Part shown: positions 18,752 through 62,722 of the stretch, piece after piece
Layout of the letters: every line of letters starts with the position of its first letter
How positions within the stretch are numbered: the first letter of the stretch is position 1
NCBI GenBank assembly: GCA_937921305.1
Contig: CAKZSU010000005.1
Location: forward strand, 74,740 to 138,739
Reading direction: 5' to 3'
Source of the DNA: an uncultured Patescibacteria group bacterium
GTDB lineage: Bacteria > Patescibacteriota > Microgenomatia > UBA10105 > UBA927
Length of the DNA stretch: 64,000 bases
Program-made: the position numbers and the translations under genes
The notes under the pieces: model-generated
Database searches by the model: none
Told to the model about the DNA's origin: nothing
The model's input: the letters and a program-made list of their open reading frames with translations, nothing else

Positions 18752-18761
18752 GTTCCCCCCC

Positions 18762-20525: not shown

Positions 20526-20541
20526 TTTTCATCATGATAAT
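20510..20541 (+). promoter_or_regulatory. candidate sigma70-like promoter for the major pilin gene (TTGACA ... GATAAT)
   Basis: TTGACA at 20510-20515 and TGATAAT at 20535-20541. The ~20-nt spacing is longer than optimal. It lies in the very short pilB/pilin divergent region. Confidence 0.25.
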
Positions 20542-20563
20542 AGAAGTATAAGTTTGTAAGCAT

Positions 20564-21091: not shown

Positions 21092-21135
21092 AATGAATTC
21101 TTAATTTTTCTTCTTGTGATACGCTTATATGTAGC

Positions 21136-22301: not shown

Positions 22302-22314
22302 TGTTATGTGTTTT

Positions 22315-22758: not shown

Positions 22759-23218
22759 AGGATTTTCTCTCATTGAACTGCTTATCGCGTCTGGCATAAT
22801 TTTGACCATTACGGGGCTTGCGATATCAAATTATGGCTCTTTTGCTGATACCCAAAGGATTCGACAAGCGGGAAAAACTTTGCAAAATAATCTTCATTTT
22901 ATCCAAAACAGAGCGATTGCTTCTGTAAAACCAAGAGAATGCGATCAAAACAATCCGATTCTTGCGTACAGAGTTTCGTTTACAGAGAACGCGTACACCT
23001 ATGTTCCTGTGTGTTCGAATGGCATTCTTCAAAACGCGAACGCAACAATTGTTCTTCCTGATCGCATCACATTTTCCCCTCCTCCTTCCTCATTTGATTT
23101 TTTAGTGTTAACAGGAAAACCCACAAGATCAGTCACGATGACGATTACGAATGGAATCAAACGATATGAGATTCGCGTGACGGAGAGCGGATCGATAGAA
23201 GATCTAGGGTTTCAGTAA
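22739..23218 (+). CDS. minor pilin-like protein
   Basis: KGFSLIELLIASGIILTI prepilin signal. Confidence 0.65.
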   Translation: MVSGIRKGFSLIELLIASGIILTITGLAISNYGSFADTQRIRQAGKTLQNNLHFIQNRAIASVKPRECDQNNPILAYRVSFTENAYTYVPVCSNGILQNANATIVLPDRITFSPPPSSFDFLVLTGKPTRSVTMTITNGIKRYEIRVTESGSIEDLGFQ

Positions 23219-42714: not shown

Positions 42715-44193
42715 ATGAGAACGGTTCGCGTTGTATTCTGGGTAATCATGGGGTGTTCCCTTGTCGCGCTTCTTTTGACGGTTATTCGCAGCGGATATTG
42801 GTATCAACTTGATAATGACGAGTACTACCATAGTCAGCTTGTGTATCTTATGAATCATGGACAACAGATCTATTCGTCGTTTTATACCTTTTATTCTCCT
42901 CTCTTTTATTGGCTTCTCCAGCCAGTATTTCATATTGTTGGGTACACAATAGAGATATTGTATGTAAGTCGAATTGTAATGATTGTGCTGTTTCTTCTTC
43001 GATTATTTATTCTATTTCTATTGATTGGGTCTGTGTTTTCTTGGAAATCCGCGTTATTTGCGTCGTTTTTCCTTCTTCTTGATCCATTTACCGTTATGAC
43101 GGGTATGCAGATTCGTCCTGATTCATTGATGCTTTTATTATTCACTGTTGCGTTGTTTCTGTATGCGCGTGCGAGAAAGCGAGAGCAAGCGTGGTTTTAT
43201 TTTGCTTCGGGCGTGTTTCTTGCGTTATCGTTGTTTTCCTTGATAAAAATCATTCCAAGCGTTGTTGTGTTTCTTCTTGTTGTTTTCATTTCTGCGGTAA
43301 TGAGAAAGAGACTTACGCGGGAAGGGATGTTGTTTTTAGGATTTGCTCTTACGCTTTCGCTTCTATGTGCGATCACGATGGCGCTTGGGATATTTCCTCA
43401 GATGATTCAACAGACGATTATCGATCCGTTGACGGTGTTTACCCTATTTCTTTACCCTGTTCCGTATGGGTTTTTTCTTCGAGAAGGAAACATGTGGATC
43501 TATGGTCCGGAGAGTCGATCATTGTCATGGGTGTTTGCGCAGTTGTTTCTGCCGTTGGCTGGTATTGGGATGTACGGGGCGTTTGAACTGGTGAAAAAGC
43601 GTGAGACATCCGTTTTTGCTCGAGACATCCTTCTTATTCTGCTTGGATCAATGATTGGGCAGTGGCTTTGGTTGATTACTGTCCCATCGATTTTTCTTCA
43701 GTATTATCTTCCAATTCATTGGATTGTCGCGTCGCTGGGAGGTATCGCTGTGGCTTCTCTTTTTGAGGGAAGATCTTCTCAACGATCGTCAATCATATGG
43801 CATAGTGTTGCGTGTGGGATTGTTCTTTTATTTGTGTATGGGGGTATACAGACAAATGTGTTTCGAAGCGGTATTCGATCTACAGACGCGTTTCATCGGA
43901 TTCGTTCTATGTGGATCACCGTGCCAAAAAATGAAGCTGTGTTTCCAAGTATATTATTTCGTCCGATTGTATATCCTCCAACGCCGTATTACACAATCTA
44001 TCCAGGAGAGCTTTCTTCTGAAGTGTTGGGTAGATACCCGTCTGTTCGCCAAGTGTTGGAAGAGAAAAATGTTCGATATGTCTATAATCACACAACTGTT
44101 CTTTCAAGTTTGTCGCAAGAAGATCAAGCATATATTCGGTTATGGTATGTTCCAAGTAAGATTGATGACGAGATATTTATCAGAAAGCGTTAA
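42715..44193 (+). CDS. GT-C fold glycosyltransferase, GT39/ArnT-like (PMT_2) membrane protein
   Basis: About 12 TM segments. First-loop acidic motif YQLDNDEYYHSQ resembles the DE motif of the ArnT/PMT family. Confidence 0.55.
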   Translation: MRTVRVVFWVIMGCSLVALLLTVIRSGYWYQLDNDEYYHSQLVYLMNHGQQIYSSFYTFYSPLFYWLLQPVFHIVGYTIEILYVSRIVMIVLFLLRLFILFLLIGSVFSWKSALFASFFLLLDPFTVMTGMQIRPDSLMLLLFTVALFLYARARKREQAWFYFASGVFLALSLFSLIKIIPSVVVFLLVVFISAVMRKRLTREGMLFLGFALTLSLLCAITMALGIFPQMIQQTIIDPLTVFTLFLYPVPYGFFLREGNMWIYGPESRSLSWVFAQLFLPLAGIGMYGAFELVKKRETSVFARDILLILLGSMIGQWLWLITVPSIFLQYYLPIHWIVASLGGIAVASLFEGRSSQRSSIIWHSVACGIVLLFVYGGIQTNVFRSGIRSTDAFHRIRSMWITVPKNEAVFPSILFRPIVYPPTPYYTIYPGELSSEVLGRYPSVRQVLEEKNVRYVYNHTTVLSSLSQEDQAYIRLWYVPSKIDDEIFIRKR

Positions 44194-44901: not shown

Positions 44902-45528
44902 ATGATCTATCACACAGCAACATCGATGATGGTCGTTACATCTGTCGCCTTGACATTGGCGATTGTTCCTCGCGTCCTTGCGTCGTCTCATCCAGAGGTG
45001 ACGGTAAGCGGAAACGGCGCTGGTTCAACGCAGCATGTAACCGTCGATGTATCATCGAATGAATCTGTTCATCAGTCAAATAATACGATGGTAATGACAA
45101 TCCAAACAGCGCATTCATCCACTGGCGGAAATAGCATTGCGGGATCTACCGGCAACGGTGGAAACAGCGTCATGACTGGTAATGCGATGTCTGAAAATAC
45201 CGTTTCTGTCAAAACCGGAGAAAATGTCGTGATGACAGGTTCATGTGGATGTCAGCCTGCTAGTATGTCTGCAAATGTGTCGGGCAACGGTGCAAATTCC
45301 AAAACAACGGTCAAGATGTCAAGAGCATCTACGCGAACTGCGACACAGCGAATGCGAACGCAGGTCTACAATGACCAGCAAGCGAAAGCAAAGACAGGAA
45401 ATAACCAAGTGAAAAATGCGACTGGATCTGGCATGAACACGGTTGAAACAGGGTCCGCGATGACCACCAACCATGTGTCTGTCGAATCTGGAAGCAATGT
45501 CCTTGGCGACCACATGATGGGAAATTAA
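44902..45528 (+). CDS. secreted Asn/Thr/Gly-rich repeat protein (paralog family A, short)
   Basis: GGAGG RBS 7 nt upstream. Signal-like N-terminus. Repeats of SGNGA/TGNA..V..TG with a SCGC Cys pair. Confidence 0.6.
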   Translation: MIYHTATSMMVVTSVALTLAIVPRVLASSHPEVTVSGNGAGSTQHVTVDVSSNESVHQSNNTMVMTIQTAHSSTGGNSIAGSTGNGGNSVMTGNAMSENTVSVKTGENVVMTGSCGCQPASMSANVSGNGANSKTTVKMSRASTRTATQRMRTQVYNDQQAKAKTGNNQVKNATGSGMNTVETGSAMTTNHVSVESGSNVLGDHMMGN

Positions 45529-45546
45529 TAACTGTTTCCCTTTCCG

Positions 45547-45580
45547 CCTCTCCTCACATCGGTGAGGGGAGGTTTTTTAT
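45547..45580. terminator. rho-independent terminator (bidirectional hairpin between convergent genes)
   Basis: CCTCTCCTCAC-atcg-GTGAGGGGAGG followed by TTTTTT; the sortase stop overlaps the T-run. Confidence 0.8.
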
Positions 45581-46149
45581 TGGTTTGGTTTCGCAATGAC
45601 CACAAGCCGTTTGCTATCCAAAAAACCTGAGCAGGTAAATAGCGTAAGACGATTGTCTTGCGTTTTATTGACGACATACACATCTGTAGGGAACACTTCT
45701 CGAATTTCTTCAACTTTGTAGCGATGCCAGTGATGACGGGTAAGGACATAAATATCTCTTCCAATCGCGATGTGCTTGAGTGGAAGAAACAGTCCTTCTC
45801 GTGCGTGTGCGAAGATAACAGTATTTCCGACTGTTCCGGGCGGCGCAGAGCCTAGCCCAAACGACGCCGTATATTCCGACACTTCCCAATAGCCATTGTG
45901 CAATTTTGATGAAACAACAGGAATGTCAATGTTTAGGCTCGGAATAATGATACGTATTGGTTGCTTGTCATCTTCTGATGGCATGGTGAATGTGGTGTCA
46001 GCCCGGATGGGAGCTTCATTCATGGAAACATTGATAAAGAGATTTGTTATATGCGGGGCGCTAATAAGCAATATGCCAAGCAATAGGAATAATATGCCGA
46101 TTTTTTTTGATCGAGAGAGCGAGATGAGTATTTTTTTTATTCGTAGCAT
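45577..46149 (-). CDS. sortase-family transpeptidase (class E-like), membrane-anchored
   Basis: N-terminal TM (ILFLLLGILLISAP), His motif VIFAHAR, active-site TLFTCSG, conserved Arg downstream. A longer ORF extends to 46290. Confidence 0.75.
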   Translation of the reverse strand: MLRIKKILISLSRSKKIGILFLLLGILLISAPHITNLFINVSMNEAPIRADTTFTMPSEDDKQPIRIIIPSLNIDIPVVSSKLHNGYWEVSEYTASFGLGSAPPGTVGNTVIFAHAREGLFLPLKHIAIGRDIYVLTRHHWHRYKVEEIREVFPTDVYVVNKTQDNRLTLFTCSGFLDSKRLVVIAKPNQ

Positions 46150-46247
46150 AATGAGAGGAAGCTTTGTTAATCCGTCAAAAAAGAGTAAGAGCCCTGAAGC
46201 GGAAGGCGGTTTCGTGTGCGGAACAGATAGAAAGGTAATGGGACGAC

Positions 46248-46847
46248 TTATTCTTTTTTGCCGAGTAGCGCGCTTCCGATGAAGAGGCATAGGAATCCGC
46301 CAATCGAGGAAAAAAGAGAAAAGGAATTTACGCTACTTGTTGCGGCAAGTCCTTTCACTTCCCCTCCTCCAATTCCTCCATGTTGGGTGCTTCCGTTTGA
46401 CCCGTGAGATGATTGCGATTCATGTGGTTGAGATTGTTGGGATGAAGATGTTGGCAATGGGGTCGATGCTGGTTGAGGCGTGGTTTTTGGCGTTCCTGTG
46501 GGCGAGAGAAGAAGTGTTGGTTTTGGTTTTCTTGTCGATCCGATTACATTGGTATTTCCTTGATTAGTGATATTAATGTTGACATTCGCGTTTCCTGTTT
46601 GAATTGTTGTATTGCCGTTGGTATTTCCTGACGCGCTGTTGTTTCCTGTGTCGGCATTCGCGGTAATGGTGTTATTGATCTGAAGTGTGTTATTTTGTTG
46701 GATGCTTCGCGTTGGTTGATGTTCAATCGATACGGTATTTGATGAATTCGCGCTATTCTGTTGAATTTCTACTGTTGCAGCATATCCGGTAGTTATCGCA
46801 AGAAGAGTGATGATAAGAAGAGATAGTATTCGGTGTATAAGATTCAT
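46248..46847 (-). CDS. surface repeat protein (paralog family A) with sortase-type sorting signal
   Basis: Signal peptide; one Asn/Thr repeat unit; Pro/Thr/Ser linker. C-terminal LAATS motif, then a hydrophobic segment and a GKKE tail. Confidence 0.6.
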   Translation of the reverse strand: MNLIHRILSLLIITLLAITTGYAATVEIQQNSANSSNTVSIEHQPTRSIQQNNTLQINNTITANADTGNNSASGNTNGNTTIQTGNANVNINITNQGNTNVIGSTRKPKPTLLLSPTGTPKTTPQPASTPLPTSSSQQSQPHESQSSHGSNGSTQHGGIGGGEVKGLAATSSVNSFSLFSSIGGFLCLFIGSALLGKKE

Positions 46848-46887
46848 ATATGCCGTAAGGCAGGTAAAAAGAAGTAGAGTAGGCAGA

Positions 46888-49134
46888 TTATGCTTGATTT
46901 TTTTGTGTCATCTTTTTAAGAATGAATAGAATTATACCAATTGGTATGAGAAAAATCAACCACGCGAGGTTGATTCGCACGACGCGTTTTCCCGCTACGA
47001 TTGGCGTTATCGTTGCTTCCGGTGCGTCGATCGTTGAAAATCCATTGATTTCGGCGTTTTCTTCTTCCATAATTATGGTGTTTGAATGTAGCGCTTCTCC
47101 ATTCGTTGTGCTTCTCGATGCTCGTTGAACGGTAGATCGACGCGTTAAGCGAATGATTCCATCAGGCAATTTTTCTTGCGATGATGTAGTTGTGACAGAT
47201 GCGATTGTGGTAGTATTTGTATTGTTTGAACTTTGCGATGAAGAATCAACTGTGATTGAGACAGTTGCGTTTGTTCCTCCGAGAGCGAGAGATTGCTCTT
47301 GCGTCTGATTCTCGGTAATCGTTTGAGTTTGTTTCTTGTGCCCTGGAGCGATAAAGTCTCCAATCCAGCTTCCGAATACATTGACAACCGTGACAAAGAG
47401 TCTTCCTGTCCCCGTAATATTGTTGTTCACAAAATTTACCATGTTGGCGATAATGTTCGCGTCTCCGGTAACGATGGATGAATTTCCTCCGGTGTTGTTG
47501 TTTGCTTGGTTTGTTCCTGTATTAGCTGAAAGATTCAGTGTATTTTTAACAACTGCAGTGTTTGTCTGTGTTGTTGTTTGATTTGATTCATTATCTATTG
47601 TTGTGGTGTTTATTGAATTTGCGCTGTTTCCTGTCGTTGCGATAATGTTGCCGTGTTCGTCAGTGGCGACAAGAAATCCTTCGGATCCAGCGATGTTCGA
47701 TCCATTTCCTCCAATAATTCTTCCTATCCATTTTCCGGCTTCATTTATGATAACGAGCCAAAAGTTTCCATCAGTGATGTTGCTGTTTGCAATATTTACA
47801 ACATTCGCGTCGATGTTTGCGTTTCCTGTGATTACTCTATTATCTCCACTTGTGTTTCCTGTGGTTTCATTGTTTCCAGTTTGGGCATTGAGAATTAATG
47901 TATTTTCTATGATGGCGTCGTTTGATTGGATTGTCGTATCGGTTGTCGATGTGTTGATAGCTGTTGTATTGGTTGAGTTCGCTCCATTATTTGCGGTGCT
48001 GATCGCAAGAGGTTGTTCTTCGCAACACGGTGCCATCATGAGATATTCTTCTGGAAAAATGATATCTCCTACGAGATTTCCATAAATATTGACAACGCCG
48101 TATAGCACATTTCCTTGAATGTTATTGTTTGCAAATGTCAGTAGGTTCGCCGATACATTTGCGTTTCCTGTATAAATGACACTTTCTCCACCTGTGTTTT
48201 CGCTTGACATGTTGTTTCCAGAATTTGCCGAAAGGGTTAGTGTGTTTCCAATAGTCGCGTCATTATTTTGGAATGTCGTGTCGTTTGAACTGTTTGTTAT
48301 GGTTGTGATGTTTGTCGAGTCTACGCCGTTTCCGTGTGTTTGACCTATTGTTCCACCTTGATTACATCCAGAGACGCATGAAGGAGCGAATTGAAGAACA
48401 ATATCTCCTCGATGATCATCGGCAACGGTAAATTCAGAGACCATCACGCCGTCGACATTGGTGTTCATAGAAGTTATAACCGTGCCTGACACATTGGCGT
48501 TTCCTGTTTTAATGAAGCTATTACTGACATTTCCTGATGCGCTGTTATTTCCTGTCGTTGTTGATTGATTGAGGTCGGTATTAACTGCTGCTGTATTATC
48601 TTGGATCATTGCTGATGATGGTTGATTATTTATTAATGTCGTGTTTTTTGAGTCTGCGTCGTTTCCTGTGGTTGCGATAGATCCTGAATAATGTTCATTG
48701 CTTTGTGTTCCAGCGTATTGATTCGAATTTCCTGTTGTTATGACGATCGATTCACCTGTCGCATCTCCGGTGATAATTCTTGTCTCTCCATTTTGCTGAG
48801 ATGGTTGTGTATTTGTTGGTTGAGATTGATTGTTTTGTTGCGTTGATTGCGTTGAAGAATCTTGCGACGGTGTTGGTTCTGGTGACGATGAGCGATCTTG
48901 TCTGCGTTCTCTGGGTGTCGGCGTTGGTTCTGGTGTTGGAGAGGCATCTGATAGGGTTGGCGTTGATGGGGCGTTTGGCGCTGTTGGCGACGATGGCGAT
49001 TGCGGAGGTGTTGGAGGTTCTGGGGAAGCTGGAGCAGTCGGTGCCGATGGGGGTGTTGGAAATTCTTGCGCTCCTACTGGAAGTTGTCCAAGAAATAATG
49101 CGATGACAAGAATACTTGTAATGATTTTTTTCAT
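46888..49134 (-). CDS. large cell-surface protein: Pro-rich N-terminal linker, four ~95-100 aa Asn/Thr/Gly repeats, C-terminal TM anchor
   Basis: Signal peptide MKKIITSILVIALFLGQLPVGAQE. PTPPSAPTAPASPEPPTPP linker. Repeats TxNxTxxxQxNxAxVxNTLxLxAxTGxNxAxxNTGGxSxIxTGxANxxAN with Cys pairs (SCVSGC, PCCEEQ). C-terminal LAWLIFLIPIGIILFILKK. Confidence 0.65.
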   Translation of the reverse strand: MKKIITSILVIALFLGQLPVGAQEFPTPPSAPTAPASPEPPTPPQSPSSPTAPNAPSTPTLSDASPTPEPTPTPRERRQDRSSSPEPTPSQDSSTQSTQQNNQSQPTNTQPSQQNGETRIITGDATGESIVITTGNSNQYAGTQSNEHYSGSIATTGNDADSKNTTLINNQPSSAMIQDNTAAVNTDLNQSTTTGNNSASGNVSNSFIKTGNANVSGTVITSMNTNVDGVMVSEFTVADDHRGDIVLQFAPSCVSGCNQGGTIGQTHGNGVDSTNITTITNSSNDTTFQNNDATIGNTLTLSANSGNNMSSENTGGESVIYTGNANVSANLLTFANNNIQGNVLYGVVNIYGNLVGDIIFPEEYLMMAPCCEEQPLAISTANNGANSTNTTAINTSTTDTTIQSNDAIIENTLILNAQTGNNETTGNTSGDNRVITGNANIDANVVNIANSNITDGNFWLVIINEAGKWIGRIIGGNGSNIAGSEGFLVATDEHGNIIATTGNSANSINTTTIDNESNQTTTQTNTAVVKNTLNLSANTGTNQANNNTGGNSSIVTGDANIIANMVNFVNNNITGTGRLFVTVVNVFGSWIGDFIAPGHKKQTQTITENQTQEQSLALGGTNATVSITVDSSSQSSNNTNTTTIASVTTTSSQEKLPDGIIRLTRRSTVQRASRSTTNGEALHSNTIIMEEENAEINGFSTIDAPEATITPIVAGKRVVRINLAWLIFLIPIGIILFILKKMTQKNQA

Positions 49135-49253
49135 ATGTGTATTAGGTTTTTCAAATACATAAAATAAATGGTATGCGTATATGCCATTTCTTGTATGTAT
49201 TTGATTTTCATTCGTCAAAAATGTTTTGGTATTTTATTAATTAATCGATCAGT

Positions 49254-49301
49254 TGTGTAGGGTGCTTTGTGGAAGTGACGACACAAAGCAAACCCTACAC
49301 A
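49254..49301. other. long (~18 bp stem) imperfect hairpin just downstream of the 49314-50531 gene
   Basis: TGTGTAGGGTGCTTTGTG-gaagtgacga-CACAAAGCAAACCCTACACA; no T-tract. Confidence 0.4.
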
Positions 49302-49313
49302 GAGATCATTTGA

Positions 49314-50531
49314 TTATCTGGCAAACAGGTGAGCAAAGCTCCAGTGCCATTCAATCATTGGCCATGTCCAATTGCTTCCGCCGAAAACATTTAAGTTTCC
49401 AGTGTTAGACACTTCTGTGTGTGACCATGCGTAGCCTGTCATAACAGATGGATCATCTCCAGCTGCGACTGTGTTATACATGGCGTCATTCTCTCCGCTT
49501 TTTGCGTCAGAGTCAGCCAAGTTTGTTAATACGGCTACATTTCCTGCTTCATCTCCTTGGAAGACTTCCATGTCGCCTCCGAGCGTTACTCTGATACGAT
49601 TGTCAGAGTCTGTCCCGTTTTCCGCAACTTTTGCTTCCACATCCATGAGACAACCGCAGTCGATGTCTGCTGCATTGAAGTTGACCATATTGTCGATGCC
49701 AACCATGGTTTTTGCATTCCCTGTGTGAATTTGTACTTCACCACCGGTATTGTCATTGGCTCTATTTGCTCCTGTTCTTGCGTTGGACGCGACAGCGTTC
49801 AGGACATCAGCCATGTTGTCTTGAACGATGGTTGCATCTCGGCCAATTTCTAATCGGATTTCGTTATTGCTTCGAGAACCATTTCCCATAATTCTCGCCG
49901 ATACGGATCCGCGTTGGTGACCTTCTCCTCCGACAACCGCGACATTCGCGTTTGCTGTTGTAGAGATTGTTACATTTGTCGAAGCATCACCGGTTCTGAC
50001 TGTTACGTCACCGCCGGTATTGCGTCTGGCATCGTTTTCCCCTGTTCTCGCTTCGGATTCAACAGTGTTCGTCACAACTGCTTCATTATTCTGGAATACT
50101 TGGGTTTCGCTTCCTCGTTTTCCATTGCCGACTTCTACTCTGTTATCAGAGCTTGAGCCGTTTCCGGAGATTCGAACGTCGAGGTCTTCCGCTTCACAAC
50201 AGTCGACTTTCGCCATATTGTTATTGAGCTTGTTTTCGATTGTTGTGTTGCTTCTCGCGTCACCGGTTTTAATCATGACGTCCCCGCCCGTATTATCGTT
50301 GGCTCGATTTCCTCCAGTTGAGGAATTGTTGGATACCGCGTTGGTAACAATTGCAGAATTGGACTGGACGACGGTTGTTCTGTTGGACTGTTCCACTCTG
50401 ATCACATTGTCAGAGCTTGAACCGTTTCCGGTAATGGTAAGTTCAGCGGCAACCGCCATTGGCGAAAGTCCGCTCAGAGCCGTTGATCCCGCGGCAAGGA
50501 CAGCGATGATTTGTCGTTTTAATTGTGTCAT
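49314..50531 (-). CDS. secreted repeat protein (paralog family A), ~4 tandem ~90-aa repeats each with a Cys pair
   Basis: Signal peptide MTQLKRQIIAVLAAGSTALSGL. Repeats ITGNGSSSDN..V..NN.A.V.N.V...A.TG.N.A..NTGG.V.I.TG.A with DCCEAED / DCGCLMD. Confidence 0.6.
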   Translation of the reverse strand: MTQLKRQIIAVLAAGSTALSGLSPMAVAAELTITGNGSSSDNVIRVEQSNRTTVVQSNSAIVTNAVSNNSSTGGNRANDNTGGDVMIKTGDARSNTTIENKLNNNMAKVDCCEAEDLDVRISGNGSSSDNRVEVGNGKRGSETQVFQNNEAVVTNTVESEARTGENDARRNTGGDVTVRTGDASTNVTISTTANANVAVVGGEGHQRGSVSARIMGNGSRSNNEIRLEIGRDATIVQDNMADVLNAVASNARTGANRANDNTGGEVQIHTGNAKTMVGIDNMVNFNAADIDCGCLMDVEAKVAENGTDSDNRIRVTLGGDMEVFQGDEAGNVAVLTNLADSDAKSGENDAMYNTVAAGDDPSVMTGYAWSHTEVSNTGNLNVFGGSNWTWPMIEWHWSFAHLFAR

Positions 50532-50630
50532 GATTTCACCTCCTTTCGTTTTTGGATTTCCGCCTATTATAGCGGATATGCCACTTCGATCCGTTTTCTT
50601 GTACCTTCTGCCCATAGATTTGGTATGTAC

Positions 50631-50698
50631 AAAAAAACGGAGGCTTCTATATTTGAATACAAACGATATTTATCGTAATTCAAATGCAGAAGCCTCCG
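50631..50698 (-). terminator. rho-independent terminator for the DUF2292 gene (minus strand)
   Basis: CGGAGGCTTCTATATTTGAAT...ATTCAAATGCAGAAGCCTCCG long hairpin, followed on the minus strand by TTTTTTT. Confidence 0.65.
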
Positions 50699-50791
50699 TG
50701 TACGGTCAGCTTACTTTTAGTATAGTTTTATATAGTTTGTTTTGTACAGATCAACATTAACTCAATTTTATGCTGTTGTCAACAGGGAATT

Positions 50792-51004
50792 TTACCCGTT
50801 TCTAACGACTCCATTCTTCTTTCGTTTTTTCGATGATTCCTGCATATTTTGAAGTGTTTTTTTTATATTTCTCACCGTGATTTGCGTTACAATGTTGTCT
50901 TGAACATAAATCTCTACGCTTCCGTATGGGCTTACTCGTTTGAGCGCGTTTGCGATTTCAGCTAGTAGGGCTTCAGAGATCGTCTGAGTTGAATATTGAT
51001 CCAT
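50792..51004 (-). CDS. DUF2292 (YezD-like) small protein
   Basis: 70 aa; LAEIANALKRVSPYGSVEIYVQDNIVTQITVRNIKK matches the YezD pattern (L..I...L....YGSV.I.I.D..V.QIE). Confidence 0.6.
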   Translation of the reverse strand: MDQYSTQTISEALLAEIANALKRVSPYGSVEIYVQDNIVTQITVRNIKKTLQNMQESSKKRKKNGVVRNG

Positions 51005-51015
51005 ATGCGAGGTTC

Positions 51016-51615
51016 TTAAAATATTACTTCTATGGATTCTTTTTCTCCACTTATTTCTCCAACTTTTAGCACAATATTCATGTCTGTATCATTGATTGGA
51101 AATCCAAGTCGGGTTATTTTTGTTGATATTGGTTGAATGTTGACGGGATCGTTGTGAATGTCCGCAGCAAGGAGTTCCTGCTCGTTTCCATTTAATGTTA
51201 AGCGAACATAATCTCGAGCTCGAAGGTCGATTGCTTTGTCGTAGTCATTGATCAGTTTGATGGTGAAAATAAGGAATGTCCTTCCGCTCACTGCGGTTGC
51301 TTTTGATCCTTGGACGATGATCTCGTCTCGAAGTTCCGCGTTTTCAATAATATATTTGATTTTTGTTACTTCTTTTCCTTTTTCATTCCGAATTGGAAAC
51401 GAAAATTCCTTGTTAATCGCTACAGACGCTTTTGGTCCTTTAATTGTTGTTCGTGTGTCTTGCGGAGTCTGAGATTTTGATGACGCGGAGATCATACGTC
51501 CGGAAATGATCACAATCCCGCCAATGAATAAAAGAAGCAACCCGATAGGGATAAATTGTTTTACTCCCTTTTTTCTTTTTTGTGAAGATGTTATTTGCTC
51601 GTGACTTTCTTTCAT
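51016..51615 (-). CDS. membrane-anchored hypothetical protein, possibly DUF4352-like
   Basis: TM helix FIPIGLLLLFIGGIVII followed by a beta-rich extracellular domain. An upstream in-frame ATG at 51744 overlaps a terminator hairpin, so the internal start is preferred. Confidence 0.45.
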   Translation of the reverse strand: MKESHEQITSSQKRKKGVKQFIPIGLLLLFIGGIVIISGRMISASSKSQTPQDTRTTIKGPKASVAINKEFSFPIRNEKGKEVTKIKYIIENAELRDEIIVQGSKATAVSGRTFLIFTIKLINDYDKAIDLRARDYVRLTLNGNEQELLAADIHNDPVNIQPISTKITRLGFPINDTDMNIVLKVGEISGEKESIEVIF

Positions 51616-51744
51616 TGTTGCCAATCTTTTTGTTAGGAAATATCTGATAGAGGGAATGAACGATGATACATCTCTTGCGATGTATTGAGGATGTTGTATT
51701 GTGTTTGTAGCGATTTTTGAGGTTTTAGATAGTCTTTTACTCAT

Positions 51745-51773
51745 AAAAAAAAGCCCTCACATGATGTGAGGCA
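51745..51773 (-). terminator. rho-independent terminator (minus strand) after the 51843-52427 gene
   Basis: GCCCTCAC-atgat-GTGAGGGC, followed on the minus strand by an 8-T run. Confidence 0.75.
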
Positions 51774-51842
51774 GTCAATGAAAGAATGGTGCAATACTAT
51801 CATTTTAAAAAATATTCTGTCAAGAATAAAAAATGAAAATTT

Positions 51843-52427
51843 TTATAGATATGGCTCGCCTTGTTCTATGCGTATATGAATATCTTTGTTGTTGCTGTTG
51901 TTTTTTGTTTGTGTTACGCGAATTGTTGTCGAGGATTCTTGCGGTTTTTTTGTTATTTCAATCGTAAGTGTTGTATTGTCTTTTTCCGCACCAAGTTTAT
52001 TCACGACTGTTCCGTTCGTGTTTGTTTTTGCGAATGTTTTGGATCGATACCCGTTTGTTTGAATGTATTGTTCATACCATGTTGTGATAATTTCCGGCGT
52101 ATCGTTACCTTGGAGGATAAGTGATTGTTCTGACGAAGAGATAATCTTGCTGTTCGGATAAAAGAAATCATTGAGCGATTGAGGCTTCTCGGGTTTTGTT
52201 GGATGTGTCGTTGGTGTTGAGAATGGCGTTTGTGTTGAAGAGAGATGCTTGGTTGGTTGTTGAGTCAGAGTTGCTGTGGGAGATGATTCTTCTTGCGTTG
52301 GCGTGCGTTGATCTGTTGCCTCCTGTATTTTTTGATTTATTGTTGTGTTTTCTCGCAATGATTGTCGCGTGAGAAGCGCTCCGGAAAGAAACACTGCAAT
52401 AACAATAAGAATAATTGCAGAATGCAT
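51843..52427 (-). CDS. membrane-anchored hypothetical protein with Thr/Pro/Gln-rich linker
   Basis: TM helix MHSAIILIVIAVFLSGALL, TPTQEESSPTATLTQQPT linker, C-terminal globular part. Confidence 0.45.
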   Translation of the reverse strand: MHSAIILIVIAVFLSGALLTRQSLRENTTINQKIQEATDQRTPTQEESSPTATLTQQPTKHLSSTQTPFSTPTTHPTKPEKPQSLNDFFYPNSKIISSSEQSLILQGNDTPEIITTWYEQYIQTNGYRSKTFAKTNTNGTVVNKLGAEKDNTTLTIEITKKPQESSTTIRVTQTKNNSNNKDIHIRIEQGEPYL

Positions 52428-52576
52428 ATATCGAATTATCTTAGAGGATGATTGCGATGAAGGCAAGTGGTCGAAGTTTAAACAAGATAAGACATCAAGA
52501 CAAGATCTTGCAAGAAGATGCTAAACCGAGTTTAGCATGACAGACGGTAAGCTTCATGGTGTAAAATTATCTTTCT

Positions 52577-53260: not shown

Positions 53261-54679
53261 ATGAATAATCGAATAATAGTATTGAAGCGTTTCATTCTGA
53301 TTGATATTCTTGCTTGTGTCGCAACGGGGCTTTTTATTTTTGCTGGGACAATGGTATCGCTCCATCGATTTTGGCAATATGAAGTGTTTTATTATAATTT
53401 TGGGATTTTTGATCAAGCAATTTGGCATGTTTCTCGATTCCGTCCACCAATTATCGAGCATTTATTGGTTGGCGGAAAACCACTGTTCGCTGATCATTTT
53501 GATGTGAGTATTCTGCTTCTTGCGCCGTTATTCTGGATAACAGACAGAAGCGAGATATTGTTAGTTGCGCAAGCGGTGTTTACTGGTCTTGCTGGATTGA
53601 TTATTTATGCGATTGGCGTTCATGCGCTTCGCGATAAGCTCATGGCGTTGGCGATTTTGCTCTGTTACTTTTTCTTTGTTGGCATTCAAAGCGCGGTAAT
53701 TACTGATTTTCATGATCTTACGGTCATGACCCTTCCTTTAGCGCTGACTTTTTGGGCGATTGTGAAAGGTCATTTGAAGACATTTTGGTTGTTTTTTTTG
53801 ATCACCATAGGATTTAAGGAAGTAACAGTATTGCTTGGCATCAGCATCGCGTTGTTTCTTATCATGTATCGTCCATCTTGGAAGATTCATGGGGTGATTG
53901 CGATCGTTTTCTCCCTTACGTGGGGAGCGCTTACATTTAAGGTATTGATTCCTTATTTTTCTGGTGGGATCTATTTGCATCAACCCGTGTTTCCGGAAAC
54001 GATTGGAGGGAAAATTTCGGCGTTGTGGGATCATCCGTTGAAACGGACTACCGTTTGGTATAGTTTGCTCCAATTTGGATTCTTGCCGATCTTTTTTCCC
54101 GCGATGTGGTTTGCTATCGTGCAAGACTATGTGGTCCGTTTTCTTCCTAAGTTTGTTGAAACGCGATGGTCGCTCGGGCTTCAGTATAATGCGCCGGTAT
54201 CGGTCTTGCTTGGCGTCGCATCTGTGTTTGGGTATGCGTTGATACAAAAGCTCGTTAGGTCGTTCCGATATCTCATTGCGTTGTTTCTTGTAGGAAACGC
54301 GTTTGTGTTATTTCGATTTGTTCATCACGGACCGTTTCTTTTAGCCGTGAATCCCGCGTTTTATGAGCATACAAACAATTTCCATTTTCTTGACGAGGCG
54401 ATTGCGGTGATTCCAAAAGATGCATCGATCATGACGCAAAACAATCTTGGGGCTCGATTCACGCATCAGCGGTTTATGTATCTTCGTTTGAATTATGAAT
54501 CGTTTGCTCCTGATTATATTTTGCTTGATGCGCGAGAAGGACAAAATCCGAATAATACGCTCTTTAGCGGATCGATTGAACAAATACTAAAAAAAGTGCG
54601 GTCTGACGAGCAGTATGAACTCATTTATCATCGCGGCGATCAATACGTGTTTAGAAGACGCCCTCGTGAAGAAAAGTAA
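53261..54679 (+). CDS. DUF2079-family polytopic membrane protein (GT-C-like)
   Basis: YNFGIFDQAIWHVSRF matches the DUF2079 FD.GIFDQ signature. About 11 TM helices, 472 aa. Confidence 0.65.
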   Translation: MNNRIIVLKRFILIDILACVATGLFIFAGTMVSLHRFWQYEVFYYNFGIFDQAIWHVSRFRPPIIEHLLVGGKPLFADHFDVSILLLAPLFWITDRSEILLVAQAVFTGLAGLIIYAIGVHALRDKLMALAILLCYFFFVGIQSAVITDFHDLTVMTLPLALTFWAIVKGHLKTFWLFFLITIGFKEVTVLLGISIALFLIMYRPSWKIHGVIAIVFSLTWGALTFKVLIPYFSGGIYLHQPVFPETIGGKISALWDHPLKRTTVWYSLLQFGFLPIFFPAMWFAIVQDYVVRFLPKFVETRWSLGLQYNAPVSVLLGVASVFGYALIQKLVRSFRYLIALFLVGNAFVLFRFVHHGPFLLAVNPAFYEHTNNFHFLDEAIAVIPKDASIMTQNNLGARFTHQRFMYLRLNYESFAPDYILLDAREGQNPNNTLFSGSIEQILKKVRSDEQYELIYHRGDQYVFRRRPREEK

Positions 54680-58917: not shown

Positions 58918-60906
58918 TTAAGAAGTTAACGCATCAAGAAGGGTTTGTAGCTTAATATACGCGCCGCACACTAGCGAATCTGCTCCTCCATAATAGACGA
59001 TAAGATTTTCTCCTAATATCACCGTTCCGCATCCAAAGACGGTTCCTGGTCGAAGTCCTTCATGGTCATACCATAATTCAGGTTCTAGAATTGGGTGATC
59101 TAATCGGCTGATAATGTACTCTGGATGATCGAGGTGTAAAAGAACTGCTCCTAACCGATACTGTTTATCCCATCGAGAGAGCGCATGATAGATAAGCAAC
59201 CACCCTTTTTCTGTTTTGACTGGCGGACCGGCGATGCCGACTTTTTCACTATCCCATCGGTCATGACGCGGTCGCATCATGATACGACCATGAAGCCATG
59301 GTTTGTTTGGAAATGTTAGATCATCCACTGCGTCGATCCAGATTGATGGGGCGATACGATGAAAAAATACATACCGTCCATCGATTTTTTCTGGAAGCAA
59401 ACACGAATTTTTGTTGTCAATTGAGGGACTAGAAATAAGTTTTGGCATCTCCCAATTCCATCGTTTTTGAAGAAAATCATCCACTGATATTGAAGTCAGA
59501 GCGATACGGGTCGGATTGACGCCATCATATGCGGTGTATGTCATATATATTTTTTCTCCCATCTGGACAAGTCGGGGGTCTTCGCAACCGGAAAATCCCG
59601 GTCGTTTTTTTTGCTCCTCAGGAATTCTCGGGACATACACCGGTTCAGAAAGGCGTTCGTCAATATGCATGCCGTCTTTTGCCGACGCATATCCCAAAAC
59701 AGATGTATCATCGTCTCCTTGTGCTCGGTACAAGATGTGAACTCGTCCATCAAGATAGATCGCTCCGGGATTATAGGTGAATTTTGATTCCCACAGGTGA
59801 TCTTTTATCGGTGTGATAATTGGATTGTTTTCAAATCGTTCAAGTTTTACCACATGCTTGAGAATTTGGGGAACATGTGTTCGTTCCAGCTTTAATTCGT
59901 TAAGTAAGTCATCAGCATCACATAATGCGACGGCACAATAGGTATCCGCCGCGCCATAATAGAGCGATATCATATTATTTATTTTGACTGCTCCGGTGGG
60001 AAAGGTAATTTTTGGAACAACCCCATGAAGTTCGTACTCTGCCTCTGGCATAAGGAGCGGCGACGGGATGACGGATTCAATGCCTTGTGGGGTTTCGTGG
60101 TGCAGAAGCGCCACTTCAACACCAAAGACGCTGTCGCTCATGCCGTAGTTTTGGATGTACGAATAAAAAAAGAGCCAACCGTCTTGCGTTTTGATCGGCG
60201 GCGCTCCCACTTCGATATGATCAATCGGTGACCGCTGAAGCGGAATGGCGTAATTTTCAAATGTTCGATACCATTTGTCCCAAAAAGAGATAGACCACAG
60301 TTCTTCAACAGTATCAACTTGGGCGTAACAAATCCGCGATGGTGGCATATCGGTATGAACGCTGAGAAGCACAGTGACTTTTCCATTGATTCGCTCTGGA
60401 AACAGTGTCATCGCTTTCGCGTTAAATGGGGTTATTAAATATTTCTGAAAACTTTGAAAATTATCGGTGATAGCGACTGCGCATTTAATCCCCGCGGCTG
60501 TGAATGGATAGGTAGAAAGGGCTGTATAAAAAATATAGTACTTTCCTTCAAAATAGGTAATTCGCGGATCTTCGCATCCGTATTGTTCCCACTCATACTC
60601 TGGTACGATAAGTTGTCGTCGTTCGGAAAAGTGAATACCGTCGTGACTTGTAGCATAGCCAATCGTTGATAGTTCCATTTCTTTTCTGTTATGAATCGAT
60701 TTTTTCCCTTGCGCTCGATAGACCATATGATAGGTGTCCATGAAGCGAACGACAGATCCATTAAATGTTGCGACGGCTTCCCAATCGTGCTCAGGATTTG
60801 GTTTAATCAGTGGATTTGCGTTAGATCGTTTAAAGCTGATCATGCAACGGAACTCCTTTCGGTGTATAGGTGTGAACATAATGCAATCGGGTAGATCCAG
60901 TCGCAA
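58918..60906 (-). CDS. two-module GH130-like (DUF377) beta-propeller glycoside phosphorylase/hydrolase
   Basis: Both halves carry GCEDPR(I/L) and YxxYTA(Y/L) motifs (YGCEDPRITYFEGKYYIFYTAL; SGCEDPRLVQMGEKIYMTYTAYDG). 662 aa. Confidence 0.6.
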   Translation of the reverse strand: MRLDLPDCIMFTPIHRKEFRCMISFKRSNANPLIKPNPEHDWEAVATFNGSVVRFMDTYHMVYRAQGKKSIHNRKEMELSTIGYATSHDGIHFSERRQLIVPEYEWEQYGCEDPRITYFEGKYYIFYTALSTYPFTAAGIKCAVAITDNFQSFQKYLITPFNAKAMTLFPERINGKVTVLLSVHTDMPPSRICYAQVDTVEELWSISFWDKWYRTFENYAIPLQRSPIDHIEVGAPPIKTQDGWLFFYSYIQNYGMSDSVFGVEVALLHHETPQGIESVIPSPLLMPEAEYELHGVVPKITFPTGAVKINNMISLYYGAADTYCAVALCDADDLLNELKLERTHVPQILKHVVKLERFENNPIITPIKDHLWESKFTYNPGAIYLDGRVHILYRAQGDDDTSVLGYASAKDGMHIDERLSEPVYVPRIPEEQKKRPGFSGCEDPRLVQMGEKIYMTYTAYDGVNPTRIALTSISVDDFLQKRWNWEMPKLISSPSIDNKNSCLLPEKIDGRYVFFHRIAPSIWIDAVDDLTFPNKPWLHGRIMMRPRHDRWDSEKVGIAGPPVKTEKGWLLIYHALSRWDKQYRLGAVLLHLDHPEYIISRLDHPILEPELWYDHEGLRPGTVFGCGTVILGENLIVYYGGADSLVCGAYIKLQTLLDALTS

Positions 60907-62722
60907 GGAGTTCTTTTAGGAAGTCATAAAGATTTGCGGAGGCGGCACAGACAACGGTATCTGCACCTCCATAATACACAATAAGTTGATCATCTTTGAT
61001 AATTGCTCCGCAGGGATAAACAACGCCTCCCTTGAATCCTACGTTGTCATGCGGATGGTCTGGCTGAAGAATTGGTACAACAGACCGCGCGATGACTTTT
61101 GTTGGATCGTGAAGATCAAGGAGCATCGCTCCGACTTTATATCTTCCGCCGTCTTTCTCTCCCACAGCATGATAAATAAGAAGCCATCCGAAAGGCGTTT
61201 TTAGTGGTGGCGCTCCAGCTCCGACTTTTCTTGTATCCCATAATGTTCTGCTTGGTTTTATTCGATATTCTCCTTTTAAGAAGGTTTCTCCGTCAAAATC
61301 GAGGTGATCGACATAATCAAGCAAAATATTTGGATAAATTCGGTGCATGATGGCGTATTTTCCATTAATTTTCTCTGGAAAGATCACGCAGTTTTTGTCC
61401 ACAACGCCTGGCGGAGAGATAAGAATGGGCGTTTTCCAATTCCATTGCTTGGCGTGAAAGTCTTCTACTGAGATAGACGACAATGCAACGCGCGGTGGAT
61501 TTGCCCCGTCATACGCGACGTAGGTAAGGTAATATCGATCTTGAATTTTTGTTAGTCTTGGATCTTCACACCCGCCATACCCTCCACCGCCAGATTCGTA
61601 TGGACTTTTTGCTGATGCAACCGCTGCTGACCAATGTGGCATAGTGACGGGAAGTTCAAATGGCTGTGTCGGCACATAGACTGGTTCATCGGGATGATCG
61701 TCAAAGGTGAATCCATCGGCGCTTGAGGCATATCCTAACACCGATGTGTCCGTGTCTCCTATGGCGCGATACACTAGATGTACGCGGTCCTTATCATATA
61801 TCGCGGCGGCGTTAAATGTTTGTTTGCTTTCCCAGAAATTTTCTGGTCTCGGCTGAATGACTGGGTTTGTTTCAGATCGTTTTAATAGAATATTTGTAAA
61901 TTGCGTTGTTTTGGTAACCATGTGATGAAATGTAGTGTGTGTAATCGCAAATACACCCTCTCCTTCAAAATCCCAGTAGGATACAAGTTCTTTTCCGTTG
62001 TATACAATCCCTATTGGTTCAACAATTTTCCCTTCCCACCCTTGATGGTGTTCCCAGATGGTTTCTGCTTGCCATGATACTGAAAGAAGATTAGTTTTAT
62101 CAATCATCGCGCCATGGAGCGACCAATGTCTTCCGCCAAATCCTCTCGCAAAGTAGAGCAACGCGATTCCCTGATCCATGATAATTGCCGTTCCTGCAAT
62201 GTGCGACAGTGTTCCCCATTGGTCGCTTTGAGCTGGCAGTATTGGCGTCGAGTGAACTTTCCATTGGAGAAAATCTGGCGATTCTGCCACGCGAATATCA
62301 TGATTTCCAAAAAACATGGCGAATTTCCCTTGATGATAATAGTTGGGCACGATTGTTCCCGTTTCCGCAATTTCATGAATCCACCCGACTTCTTTCCACT
62401 GAATAAGATTTTTCGATAGCGCAAGATGCATTCTCCTCGGCGAATGATTCCAATCGATATATGTCATCGCAAAGACATTCCCAAGCATCGATATGCGGAT
62501 GTTGTTGATGTTTCTTACATCAACGAGATTATTATGTTTGTCTTTGATTGATGGATGCTCGTGAAATGTTTTGATCGACATGGTATCGTCTGATGAAAGC
62601 AATTGGAGCGCGCATCGTTCGCCGTCATGAACCATATAGTATAGATAGATATTTCCTTCATGATAATAGACGCCAAGCCCTCGAGAAGTGTCGGATCTTG
62701 GTGGGATAAGAATAGTGTTCAT
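60830..62722 (-). CDS. GH130-like (DUF377) beta-propeller protein with additional N-terminal beta-rich module, paralog of the preceding gene
   Basis: GGCEDPRLTKIQDRYYLTYVAYDG, FNAAAIYDKDRVHLVYRAIGDTDTSVLGYASS. 630 aa. 3' end overlaps the next gene by 77 nt. Confidence 0.55.
   Translation of the reverse strand: MNTILIPPRSDTSRGLGVYYHEGNIYLYYMVHDGERCALQLLSSDDTMSIKTFHEHPSIKDKHNNLVDVRNINNIRISMLGNVFAMTYIDWNHSPRRMHLALSKNLIQWKEVGWIHEIAETGTIVPNYYHQGKFAMFFGNHDIRVAESPDFLQWKVHSTPILPAQSDQWGTLSHIAGTAIIMDQGIALLYFARGFGGRHWSLHGAMIDKTNLLSVSWQAETIWEHHQGWEGKIVEPIGIVYNGKELVSYWDFEGEGVFAITHTTFHHMVTKTTQFTNILLKRSETNPVIQPRPENFWESKQTFNAAAIYDKDRVHLVYRAIGDTDTSVLGYASSADGFTFDDHPDEPVYVPTQPFELPVTMPHWSAAVASAKSPYESGGGGYGGCEDPRLTKIQDRYYLTYVAYDGANPPRVALSSISVEDFHAKQWNWKTPILISPPGVVDKNCVIFPEKINGKYAIMHRIYPNILLDYVDHLDFDGETFLKGEYRIKPSRTLWDTRKVGAGAPPLKTPFGWLLIYHAVGEKDGGRYKVGAMLLDLHDPTKVIARSVVPILQPDHPHDNVGFKGGVVYPCGAIIKDDQLIVYYGGADTVVCAASANLYDFLKELLATGSTRLHYVHTYTPKGVPLHDQL

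What the first reader, a model, noticed from the sequence alone, without database searches (positions are those of the whole stretch)
44902..50531. Four paralogous secreted proteins built from an unrecognised ~90-100 aa Asn/Thr/Gly-rich repeat with a conserved Cys pair
Genes at 44902-45528 (+), 46248-46847 (-), 46888-49134 (-) and 49314-50531 (-) all carry signal peptides. All share tandem units of the form TxNxTxxxQxNxAxVxNxLxLxAxTGxNxAxxNTGGxSxIxTGxANxxAN. Each unit ends with a closely spaced Cys pair (SCGC, DCCEAED, DCGCLMD, SCVSGC, PCCEEQ). The largest also has a Pro-rich stalk and a C-terminal membrane anchor. I do not recognise this repeat as a named domain. A multi-paralog surface family like this is the kind of gene set expected to mediate host or particle attachment in an episymbiotic, pilus-bearing bacterium.
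Basis: partly seen in the sequence, partly recalled or inferred. Interest (0 to 1): 0.65.

Follow-up and report, generated by a model that had tools for sequence, protein, structure and literature searches.

The report
Sortase-linked hairpin-repeat surface protein cluster
Four secreted proteins built from an undescribed 88-residue beta-hairpin repeat sit with their own sortase in a gene cluster conserved across Microgenomates (CPR) bacteria, and it most likely builds a wall-tethered protein layer or fibre rather than a variable host adhesin.

Summary
Four ORFs (A 44902-45528 +, B 46248-46847 -, C 46888-49134 -, D 49314-50531 -) share an ~88-aa Asn/Thr/Gly-rich unit: D has 4, C has 4.5, A has 2, B has 1. 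The unit has no match in Pfam, NCBIfam, PDB sequences or PDB folds.

The order D-C-B-sortase, with A on the opposite strand, is kept in all 14 related loci. Sortase subtype co-varies 13/13 with B's motif (L[AS]ATx versus LPATG).

D is about as conserved as trigger factor. It has the strongest Shine-Dalgarno site in the window and is bracketed by strong hairpins. C, B and the sortase have no such site. A evolves fastest.

Covariation over 1667 units shows one long antiparallel hairpin per unit, with a conserved Ala/Val + Asn/Gln face. It is not a beta-solenoid. Cys pairs follow only 5 of 11 units.

Best reading (inferred): D, with A, is the abundant building block that assembles on wall-anchored B and membrane-anchored C. 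The logic resembles chaplins or curli; the domain is new. An exhaustive search finds about 3200 family clusters, all unnamed. Function is untested.

The parts
49314..50531 (-). Gene D: 405 aa with a signal peptide, four ~88-aa units, a conserved C-terminal tail and no anchor. Inferred to be the major secreted subunit.
   Evidence: Units. More than 1035 homologues of ~400 aa at 45-70% identity, all 'hypothetical' and without Pfam domains. C112, C292 and C294 are invariant in 58 sequences. Conservation is close to that of trigger factor.
50536..50546 (-). Shine-Dalgarno site AAAGGAGGTGA, 4 nt upstream of the D start codon. It is the longest SD match in the window.
   Evidence: Only 4 of 52 window ORFs have an SD match of 8 nt or more. 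D orthologues have 8-11 nt matches in 5 of 7 other loci; L002 has 5 nt, and the L005 start I scored is probably an internal TTG.
50627..50703 (-). Intrinsic terminator (long stem plus U7) ending the upstream DUF2292 gene. It isolates D as its own transcription start.
   Evidence: dG -35 kcal/mol, z -6.7.
49254..49301 (-). Strong stem-loop immediately 3' of the D stop codon, with no U tract. Inferred to be an attenuator or an mRNA-stabilising hairpin.
   Evidence: dG -31, z -6.4. An equivalent hairpin occurs in all 13 other loci, with CACUUC in the loop in 11 of 14 genomes.
46888..49134 (-). Gene C: 748 aa. Signal peptide, Pro-rich region (23-100), half-unit (101-138), four extended units (155-597), S/T/N-rich spacer, and a conserved INLAWL TM anchor (722-744) with a basic tail.
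   Evidence: The C family has 359+ members of 700-800 aa at 40-59% identity. Each C unit carries a conserved hydrophobic extension (G..VVN..G.W.GD.I.P).
46248..46847 (-). Gene B: 199 aa. Signal peptide, one unit (26-102), Pro/Thr/Ser/Gly spacer, then a sorting signal.
46260..46349 (-). Sorting signal of B: LAATS (residues 167-171), a hydrophobic segment (175-196) and a KKE tail.
   Evidence: Orthologues have [EQ][VI]LGL[AS]A[TA]x or LPATG at the same place. Kyte-Doolittle 1.93. The motif co-varies with sortase subtype in 13 of 13 loci.
45577..46290 (-). Sortase with a TLFTC active-site motif. It overlaps the 3' end of B by 43 nt.
   Evidence: Pfam PF04203, E = 1.2e-21. All NCBIfam sortase class models score below their cut-offs. 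The overlap with B is conserved in orthologous loci.
45546..45573 (.). 12-bp GC-rich hairpin with T-runs, lying between the convergent genes A and sortase. It is a terminator-like site.
44902..45528 (+). Gene A: 208 aa. Signal peptide, two units with a CGC after the first, no anchor, and a strong SD (GGAGGTGA). It is the fastest-evolving member.
   Evidence: Only 14 homologues were found by the word-seeded search. Identity is 32-49% where D is 45-67%. It sits on the opposite strand after the sortase in the 11 of 14 loci that extend that far.
50792..51744 (-). Conserved upstream neighbours: a DUF2292 small protein (50792-51004) and a 242-aa single-TM protein (51016-51744). Whether they belong to the system is unknown.
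   Evidence: Both are present upstream of D in nearly all loci. DUF2292 match.

Best explanation
Genes A, B, C and D plus the sortase form one conserved cell-surface module of Microgenomates (CPR) bacteria.

Shown:
- The shared ~88-aa unit is an unannotated all-beta repeat. Its core is one long antiparallel hairpin with its tip at NTGG.
- One face of the hairpin is conserved (Val/Ala alternating with invariant Asn/Gln). The other face is variable and charged.
- B is the substrate of the adjacent sortase.
- C has a C-terminal membrane anchor. D and A have no anchor.
- D and A carry the strong translation signals. C, B and the sortase do not.

Inferred:
- D is the abundant secreted building block.
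- D, with A, assembles through unit-to-unit beta-sheet contacts onto the homologous units displayed on spacers by B (linked to the wall by sortase) and by C (membrane-anchored).
- The product is a tethered protein layer or fibre on the cell surface. The paired Cys residues staple units or subunits by disulfides.
- The organisation parallels long and short chaplins, or CsgB and CsgA. The domain is different.
For: - Repeat present in all four proteins and nowhere else in the window.
- Order D-C-B-sortase / A conserved in 14 loci from Gottesman-, Woese-, Levy-, Chisholmbacteria and unnamed MAGs.
- B orthologues end in L[AS]A[TA]x or LPATG, then a TM segment and a basic tail. The motif type matches the sortase subtype in 13 of 13 loci.
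- D identity tracks trigger factor: 67/45/54% against 75/55/57%.
- D has an 11-nt SD and A an 8-nt SD. C, B and the sortase have 5 nt or less in all 8 genomes. Only 4 of 52 window ORFs reach 8 nt.
- D is bracketed by strong hairpins, and the 3' hairpin is conserved in all 14 genomes.
- DCA on 1667 units gives the long-hairpin ladder.
- The inward face has entropy 1.46 bits, with 56% aliphatic/Ala, 33% Asn/Gln and 1% charged residues. The outward face has 3.32 bits and 36% charged residues.
- AF2 gives an all-beta model with confident unit cores (pLDDT 80-89) but poor overall confidence for the monomer (pLDDT 60, pTM 0.51).
- Mature D and C are acidic (pI 4.5, 4.4); A and B are neutral to basic (7.9, 9.0).
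- Meheust et al. 2019 (PMC6744442) report the sortase as near-ubiquitous in Microgenomates, and disulfide-forming MdbA/VKOR as enriched in CPR.
Against: - There is no experimental or expression data. Abundance is inferred only from SD strength and flanking hairpins.
- No oligomer model could be run.
- The AF2 monomer models have low overall confidence (pLDDT 59-60).
- Foldseek finds no significant match. FapC and CsgA come top only at E = 4e-3 to 2, with TM 0.05-0.27. Those hits probably reflect composition.
- Fibre and two-dimensional layer cannot be told apart.
- The role of A is a guess.
- Four conserved Cys residues are unusual for S-layer proteins.
Confidence: 0.5

Rival explanations
1. 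These are host or particle adhesins. The proteins act individually as surface-displayed binding modules that attach the episymbiont to its host.
For: - Surface location, with anchored forms B and C.
- A and B evolve fast.
- CPR bacteria are often episymbionts, and the window encodes type IV pili.
- The flat Asn/Thr-rich sheet could bind glycans.
Against: - D, the largest family, is as conserved as trigger factor across class-level lineages.
- D is single-copy per locus, has a fixed architecture in 57 of 58 sequences, and has no anchor.
- It is the buried-type face of the unit that is conserved, not the exposed face.
Confidence: 0.2
2. This is a covalent sortase-assembled pilus. The sortase joins the Thr of B's sorting motif to a Lys of D or of another subunit, as in Gram-positive pili.
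For: - A dedicated sortase overlaps B.
- D has a nearly invariant Lys, K301, at the start of unit 4.
- The best NCBIfam sortase model is class C, at 39 bits.
Against: - Only B carries a sorting signal. D, A and C do not, so no chain of subunits can be built by transpeptidation.
- The class C model score is far below its cut-off of 160.
- There are no CnaB or SpaA domains.
Confidence: 0.1
3. These are non-assembling wall proteins that bind a regular ligand (peptidoglycan or another glycan, a mineral, ice or a metal) through the ordered Asn/Thr face. The Cys pairs would bind metal.
For: - About ten invariant Asn/Gln residues per unit, on one face.
- Weak Foldseek hits include ice-binding and beta-helical carbohydrate-active proteins.
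- Vicinal CC and CxC motifs can bind metals.
Against: - Those Foldseek hits are insignificant (TM about 0.05-0.1).
- The conserved face is more than half aliphatic, which is typical of a buried interface.
- This does not explain why the same unit is needed on wall-anchored, membrane-anchored and free proteins in one operon.
Confidence: 0.15
4. The shared repeat is a low-complexity or compositional artefact, and the four proteins share no real domain.
For: The proteins are compositionally biased (Asn 10-13%, Thr 9-14%, Gly 8-11%).
Against: - The matches cover the full length of the HMM, with position-specific invariant residues.
- There is a covariation ladder.
- An exhaustive search finds 3198 family clusters.
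- Synteny is conserved.
Confidence: 0.01

Closest known systems
Chaplins of Streptomyces (ChpA-H) with class E sortases. The comparison is from my own knowledge of the family; the domain was tested here through Pfam.
   Same: - Paralogues share one assembly domain.
- 'Long' forms carry a C-terminal LAxTG-type sorting signal and are wall-anchored by a sortase.
- 'Short' forms are secreted free and assemble on the surface.
- Conserved Cys pairs are present.
- B's LAATS motif resembles LAxTG.
   Different: - No chaplin domain match.
- The unit is 88 aa and hydrophilic (Asn/Thr/Gly-rich, GRAVY -0.5), not a ~40-aa hydrophobic domain.
- The free subunit D has four units, more than the anchored B.
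- There is an extra membrane-anchored member, C.
- The host is a CPR bacterium, not an actinomycete.
Curli (CsgA/CsgB) and Fap (FapC/FapB) functional amyloids
   Same: - A major secreted multi-repeat subunit plus a homologous surface-tethered minor subunit.
- Asn/Gln/Gly/Ala/Ser/Thr-rich repeats with polar residues on the conserved face.
- FapC and CsgA are the top, though insignificant, Foldseek hits.
   Different: - No Curlin_rpt or Fap match.
- Curli and Fap repeats are ~20-35 aa strand-turn-strand coils stacked in parallel in a beta-solenoid. Here the unit is a ~55-residue antiparallel hairpin.
- No outer-membrane secretion genes are expected in a monoderm.
- Anchoring here is by sortase.
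Sortase-assembled Gram-positive pili (SpaA type)
   Same: A dedicated sortase is encoded with its substrates, and the system is linked to a disulfide-forming machinery (PMC6744442).
   Different: - The major protein D has no sorting signal.
- No CnaB or SpaA folds.
- The sortase does not reach the class C cut-off.
- A separate SpaA-like protein with a second sortase exists in L001.
Gram-positive S-layer proteins
   Same: An abundant, acidic, secreted, self-assembling envelope protein that is tethered to the wall.
   Different: - No SLH, CWB2 or other known anchoring domain.
- Tethering would be indirect, through the homologous anchored paralogues.
- Conserved Cys residues and high sequence conservation are atypical for S-layer proteins.

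Membership tests
Sortase substrate (applies to B) | N-terminal signal peptide | tested here: inconclusive
   An n/h/c pattern with GYA|A is present and conserved in orthologues. No SignalP-type predictor was available.
Sortase substrate (applies to B) | C-terminal LPXTG-like motif followed by a hydrophobic segment and a basic tail | tested here: met
   LAATS (167-171), hydrophobic segment 175-196 (Kyte-Doolittle 1.93) and KKE. Orthologues have L[AS]A[TA]x or canonical LPATG at the same position.
Sortase substrate (applies to B) | A cognate sortase | tested here: met
   The adjacent, overlapping sortase has PF04203 at E = 1e-21. Sortase subtype co-varies with motif type in 13 of 13 loci. Cleavage itself is not testable here.
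Curli (CsgA/CsgB) | Curlin repeat (Pfam Curlin_rpt), ~20-aa strand-loop-strand coils forming a beta-solenoid | tested here: not met
   No Pfam hit at E <= 1. The unit is 88 aa. DCA shows an antiparallel hairpin and no constant-separation ladder. Foldseek to CsgA gives E = 0.03-2 and TM 0.05-0.09.
Fap amyloid (FapC) | Fap repeats and structural similarity to the FapC fibril | tested here: not met
   No Pfam hit. Foldseek to 9u4u gives E = 4e-3, probability 0.51, TM 0.13/0.27 and rmsd 34 A. With the two-unit model it gives E = 0.02 and TM 0.08.
Chaplins | Chaplin domain (Pfam) | tested here: not met
   No Pfam hit at E <= 1 for A-D.
Chaplins | Anchored paralogues with a sorting signal plus free secreted paralogues sharing the same domain | tested here: met
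   B is anchored; D and A are free; all share the same unit.
Sortase-assembled pili | Major subunit with its own LPXTG signal, a pilin-motif Lys and CnaA/CnaB-type domains; a class C sortase | tested here: not met
   D and A have no sorting signal. There are no Cna or SpaA domains. The class C sortase model scores 39 bits against a cut-off of 160.
S-layer proteins of monoderms | SLH, CWB2 or another known wall-binding module | tested here: not met
   No Pfam or NCBIfam match.
Functional amyloid (generic) | Cross-beta fibre, dye binding, resistance to SDS and formic acid | not testable with these tools
   This needs purified protein.

The most novel reading that the evidence does not exclude
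The cluster encodes a previously unrecognised kind of self-assembling surface polymer that forms the core protein exoskeleton of Microgenomates. It would be built from long antiparallel beta-hairpin units with Asn/Gln ladders and small apolar stripes. The polymer would be templated and tethered by homologous units on a sortase-anchored protein and on a membrane-anchored protein. This would be a third architectural solution alongside beta-solenoid amyloids (curli, Fap) and classical S-layers.
Probability: 0.35. Interest if true: 0.8.

Novelty: new variant of a known kind. Interest (0 to 1): 0.6.

Why it matters
What CPR cell surfaces are made of is essentially unknown. Reviews note only that an S-layer has been seen in some species (PMC13293708). 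Microgenomates-enriched protein families are listed as 'primarily hypothetical' (PMC6744442).

This cluster names a concrete five-gene candidate for a core envelope structure of a whole CPR class, and it is conserved at housekeeping level. It comes with a defined domain, a defined sortase-substrate pair carrying a non-canonical motif (L[AS]ATx), and clear in vitro tests. The repeat is also a candidate for a new Pfam family: about 3200 clusters at 50% identity, none annotated.

Tried and rejected
- Pfam and NCBIfam scans of A-D gave nothing.
- A profile search of PDB sequences gave 0 hits at E <= 10.
- Foldseek against PDB, with the full D model and with a two-unit model, gave no hit at E <= 1e-3 and TM <= 0.27.
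- The second AF2 run, on a two-unit construct with a mixed alignment, was no better than the first (pLDDT 59).
With the single protein it gave only 7 loci, several with evidently wrong 'Gammaproteobacteria' titles.
- The homologue search with A gave only 14 hits.
- Cluster look-ups gave no informative names.
- Five literature searches found no description of this repeat or cluster. The archaeal sheath-protein paper reports no bacterial homologues of that family.
- The beta-solenoid expectation was rejected on covariation.
- A second DCA ladder (positions 4-14 with 45-57) involves only highly conserved Asn/Gly positions and is geometrically hard to fit within one unit. I treat it as a possible subfamily artefact or an inter-unit contact, not as established.
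- RNAalifold on the 3' hairpins recovered only the outer stem, because MAFFT misaligned the divergent inner stems. The single-sequence folds carry that point instead.
Full report
**What is there**

The sortase overlaps the end of B by 43 nt.

None of A-D matches any Pfam or NCBIfam model at E <= 1. A profile of 58 D homologues finds no PDB sequence at E <= 10.

**The repeat is real**

- An HMM made from D's four units finds 4 units in D, 4 full units plus a half-unit in C, 2 in A and 1 in B. The matches run nearly the full length of the model.
- A refined HMM finds nothing else in the six-frame translation of the window.
- The unit consensus over 1667 distinct units is ..I.GNG..S.N.....(variable)..V.Q.N.A.V.N.V.A.A.TG.N.A..NTGG.V.I.TG.A...V.V.N..N.N.A. 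About ten positions are Asn/Gln/Gly in more than 90% of units.
- In D, C112, C292 and C294 are invariant in 58 sequences.

**Shape of the unit**

- AF2 on D with 58 homologues gives an all-beta model. Unit cores have pLDDT 80-89 and overall confidence is poor (mean 60, pTM 0.51). A two-unit construct did no better.
- I ran a mean-field DCA on 1667 units (Meff 1475). Of the top 60 couplings, 18 lie on i+j = 105-109, running from pair (26,79) to pair (49,57).
- That ladder is one long antiparallel hairpin per unit, with its tip at NTGG and matching TG kinks at positions 44-45 and 61-62. It agrees with the AF2 strand pattern.
- On the first arm, the inward-facing positions have mean entropy 1.46 bits, with 56% aliphatic/Ala, 33% Asn/Gln and 1% charged residues. 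The outward-facing positions have 3.32 bits and 36% charged residues.
- Coupled cross-strand pairs include Q28-N77 and N36-N72, interspersed with Ala/Val pairs.
- A conserved face of this kind looks like a buried sheet-to-sheet interface. That last step is inference.

**The cluster is a conserved system**

- D has more than 1035 homologues in the 90% clusters, of ~400 aa and 45-70% identity over the full length. Where named, they come from Gottesman-, Ames-, Woese- and Levybacteria and 'Patescibacteria'. All are hypothetical.
- An exhaustive HMMER scan of 1.84 billion representatives with a two-unit profile finds 3198 proteins at E <= 1e-3 and 909 at E <= 1e-30. Most are ~400-430 aa. Some have 5 units, and a few are 738-1183 aa.
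- C is likewise a conserved 700-800 aa family.
- In 14 related loci the order is the same as far as each locus extends: a ~210-240 aa TM protein, a DUF2292 small protein, a gap of ~300 nt, then D, C, B and sortase, with A on the opposite strand.

**B is the sortase substrate**

- Every B orthologue ends in a motif, then a hydrophobic segment, then a basic tail.
- One-unit forms, and one three-unit form (L010), have [EQ][VI]LGL[AS]A[TA]x. The window has EVKGLAATS.
- The other three-unit forms have canonical LPATG.
- The loci with L[AS]A[TA]x (one has LSDTS) all carry a TL[FY]TC sortase that is 46-63% identical to the window's sortase. The five LPATG loci all carry a different LQTC sortase that is 29% identical or less. 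The match is 13 of 13.
- C orthologues end instead in a conserved INLAWL TM anchor with no such motif.
- D and A have no anchor at all.

**Dosage signals**

- D has AAAGGAGGTGA four bases upstream of its ATG. This is the longest SD match in the window. A has GGAGGTGA.
- C, B and the sortase have 5 matching bases or fewer in all eight genomes compared.
- Only 4 of 52 window ORFs reach 8 bases. One of the others is inorganic pyrophosphatase.
- An intrinsic terminator lies upstream of D (dG -35, z -6.7).
- A strong stem-loop lies just after the D stop codon (dG -31, z -6.4, no U tract).
- A comparable 3' hairpin follows D in all 13 other loci. The stems differ in sequence, and CACUUC sits in the apical loop in 11 of 14 genomes.

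**Rates of change**

Against L004, L006 and L007 respectively:

| Protein | L004 | L006 | L007 |
|---|---|---|---|
| D | 67% | 45% | 54% |
| Trigger factor | 75% | 55% | 57% |
| C | 55% | 47% | 48% |
| Sortase | 63% | 49% | 46% |
| B | 48% | 42% | 35% |
| A | 49% | 37% | 32% |

D behaves like a core structural protein. A and B change fastest. Mature D and C are acidic (pI 4.5 and 4.4); A and B are neutral to basic (7.9 and 9.0).

**Interpretation**

Shown:
- a new repeat domain;
- a conserved five-gene surface module;
- a dedicated sortase-substrate pair with a non-canonical motif;
- one membrane-anchored member and two free members;
- strong translation signals on the free members only.

Inferred: D, with A, is the abundant building block. 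It assembles by homotypic beta-sheet contacts onto the units that B (wall-linked) and C (membrane-linked) display on Pro/Ser/Thr-rich spacers. The result would be a tethered layer or fibre. The paired Cys residues would form disulfides; D and C each have two pairs, at equivalent unit ends.

The logic is that of long and short chaplins with their sortases, or of CsgB and CsgA. The domain, its size and its antiparallel hairpin core are different. Every membership test against chaplin, curli, Fap, SpaA-type pilus or SLH S-layer domains failed.

I put 0.5 on this mechanism. Rivals are individual adhesins (0.2), ligand-binding wall proteins (0.15) and a covalent sortase pilus (0.1). The pilus reading is disfavoured because only B has a sorting signal.

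**Literature**

Five searches found no description of this repeat or cluster. Meheust et al. 2019 (PMC6744442) report the sortase family as near-ubiquitous in Microgenomates. They also report 35 Microgenomates-enriched families as mainly hypothetical, and disulfide-forming MdbA/VKOR as common in CPR. That fits, but does not name, this system.

**Verdict**

The adhesin and solenoid interpretation is only partly supported. What is there is a conserved, sortase-linked surface-assembly module. I rate it a new variant of a known kind, interest 0.6.

Noticed in passing
window 49254-49301 (-); L001-L014 just 3' of the D orthologue: A strong stem-loop follows the D stop codon in all 14 genomes (dG -25 to -44 kcal/mol). 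The stems differ in sequence, and a conserved CACUUC motif sits in the apical loop in 11 of 14. No Rfam family reached gathering score anywhere in the window except a tRNA. It may be a conserved attenuator or stabiliser RNA element.
   Followed up: partly
L003, L009, L011, L012, L014 versus the window and L001, L002, L004-L008, L010: Two sortase subtypes exist, with active-site contexts TL[FY]TC and LQTC. They pair strictly with two sorting motifs on B (L[AS]A[TA]x, once LSDTS, versus LPATG). They also pair with one-unit versus three-unit forms of B in all loci but L010, which combines three units with LSDTS and the TL[FY]TC sortase.
   Followed up: yes
window 49314-49385 (C-terminal ~23 aa of D): D orthologues share an unanchored C-terminal tail, W..PEF.FNFN.SL...QL..LLGL, with alternating aromatic residues followed by an amphipathic stretch. 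AF2 gives it pLDDT below 50. It could be a docking or donor strand. D also has a nearly invariant Lys (K301).
   Followed up: no
window 42715-44193 (+), 53261-54679 (+), 58918-62722 (-): A PMT_2-type protein mannosyltransferase, a DUF2079 membrane protein and two GH130 mannoside phosphorylases flank the cluster. The Ser/Thr/Pro-rich spacers of B and C could be O-mannosylated. The PMT_2 gene is also next to the cluster in L004.
   Followed up: no
window 50792-52466 (-): A DUF2292 small protein, a 242-aa single-TM protein and a 207-aa Thr/Pro-rich protein lie upstream of D. They are conserved there in most related loci. Whether they belong to the system is unknown.
   Followed up: partly
window 16463-23218: A separate type IV pilus locus: PilC-like T2SSF, PilT-like and PilB-like ATPases, prepilin peptidase and three N-methyl-motif pilins.
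   Followed up: partly
L001 1-6296; L005 3910-5293: Some relatives carry a second sortase just upstream, next to a 1840-aa SpaA_2-domain protein (L001) or an fn3-domain protein (L005). This is a distinct sortase system beside the cluster.
   Followed up: no
window, all ORFs: Most genes in this genome lack a recognisable Shine-Dalgarno site. Only 4 of 52 ORFs have an 8-nt match: D, A, inorganic pyrophosphatase (13750-14253) and an ORF starting at 10189.
   Followed up: partly
P0056; L008, L009, L012-L014 record titles: Public annotation errors. One D orthologue is named 'SNF2 domain/helicase domain/RING finger domain-containing protein'. Several contigs carrying this CPR cluster are titled 'uncultured Gammaproteobacteria' or 'Pseudomonadales'.
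   Followed up: no
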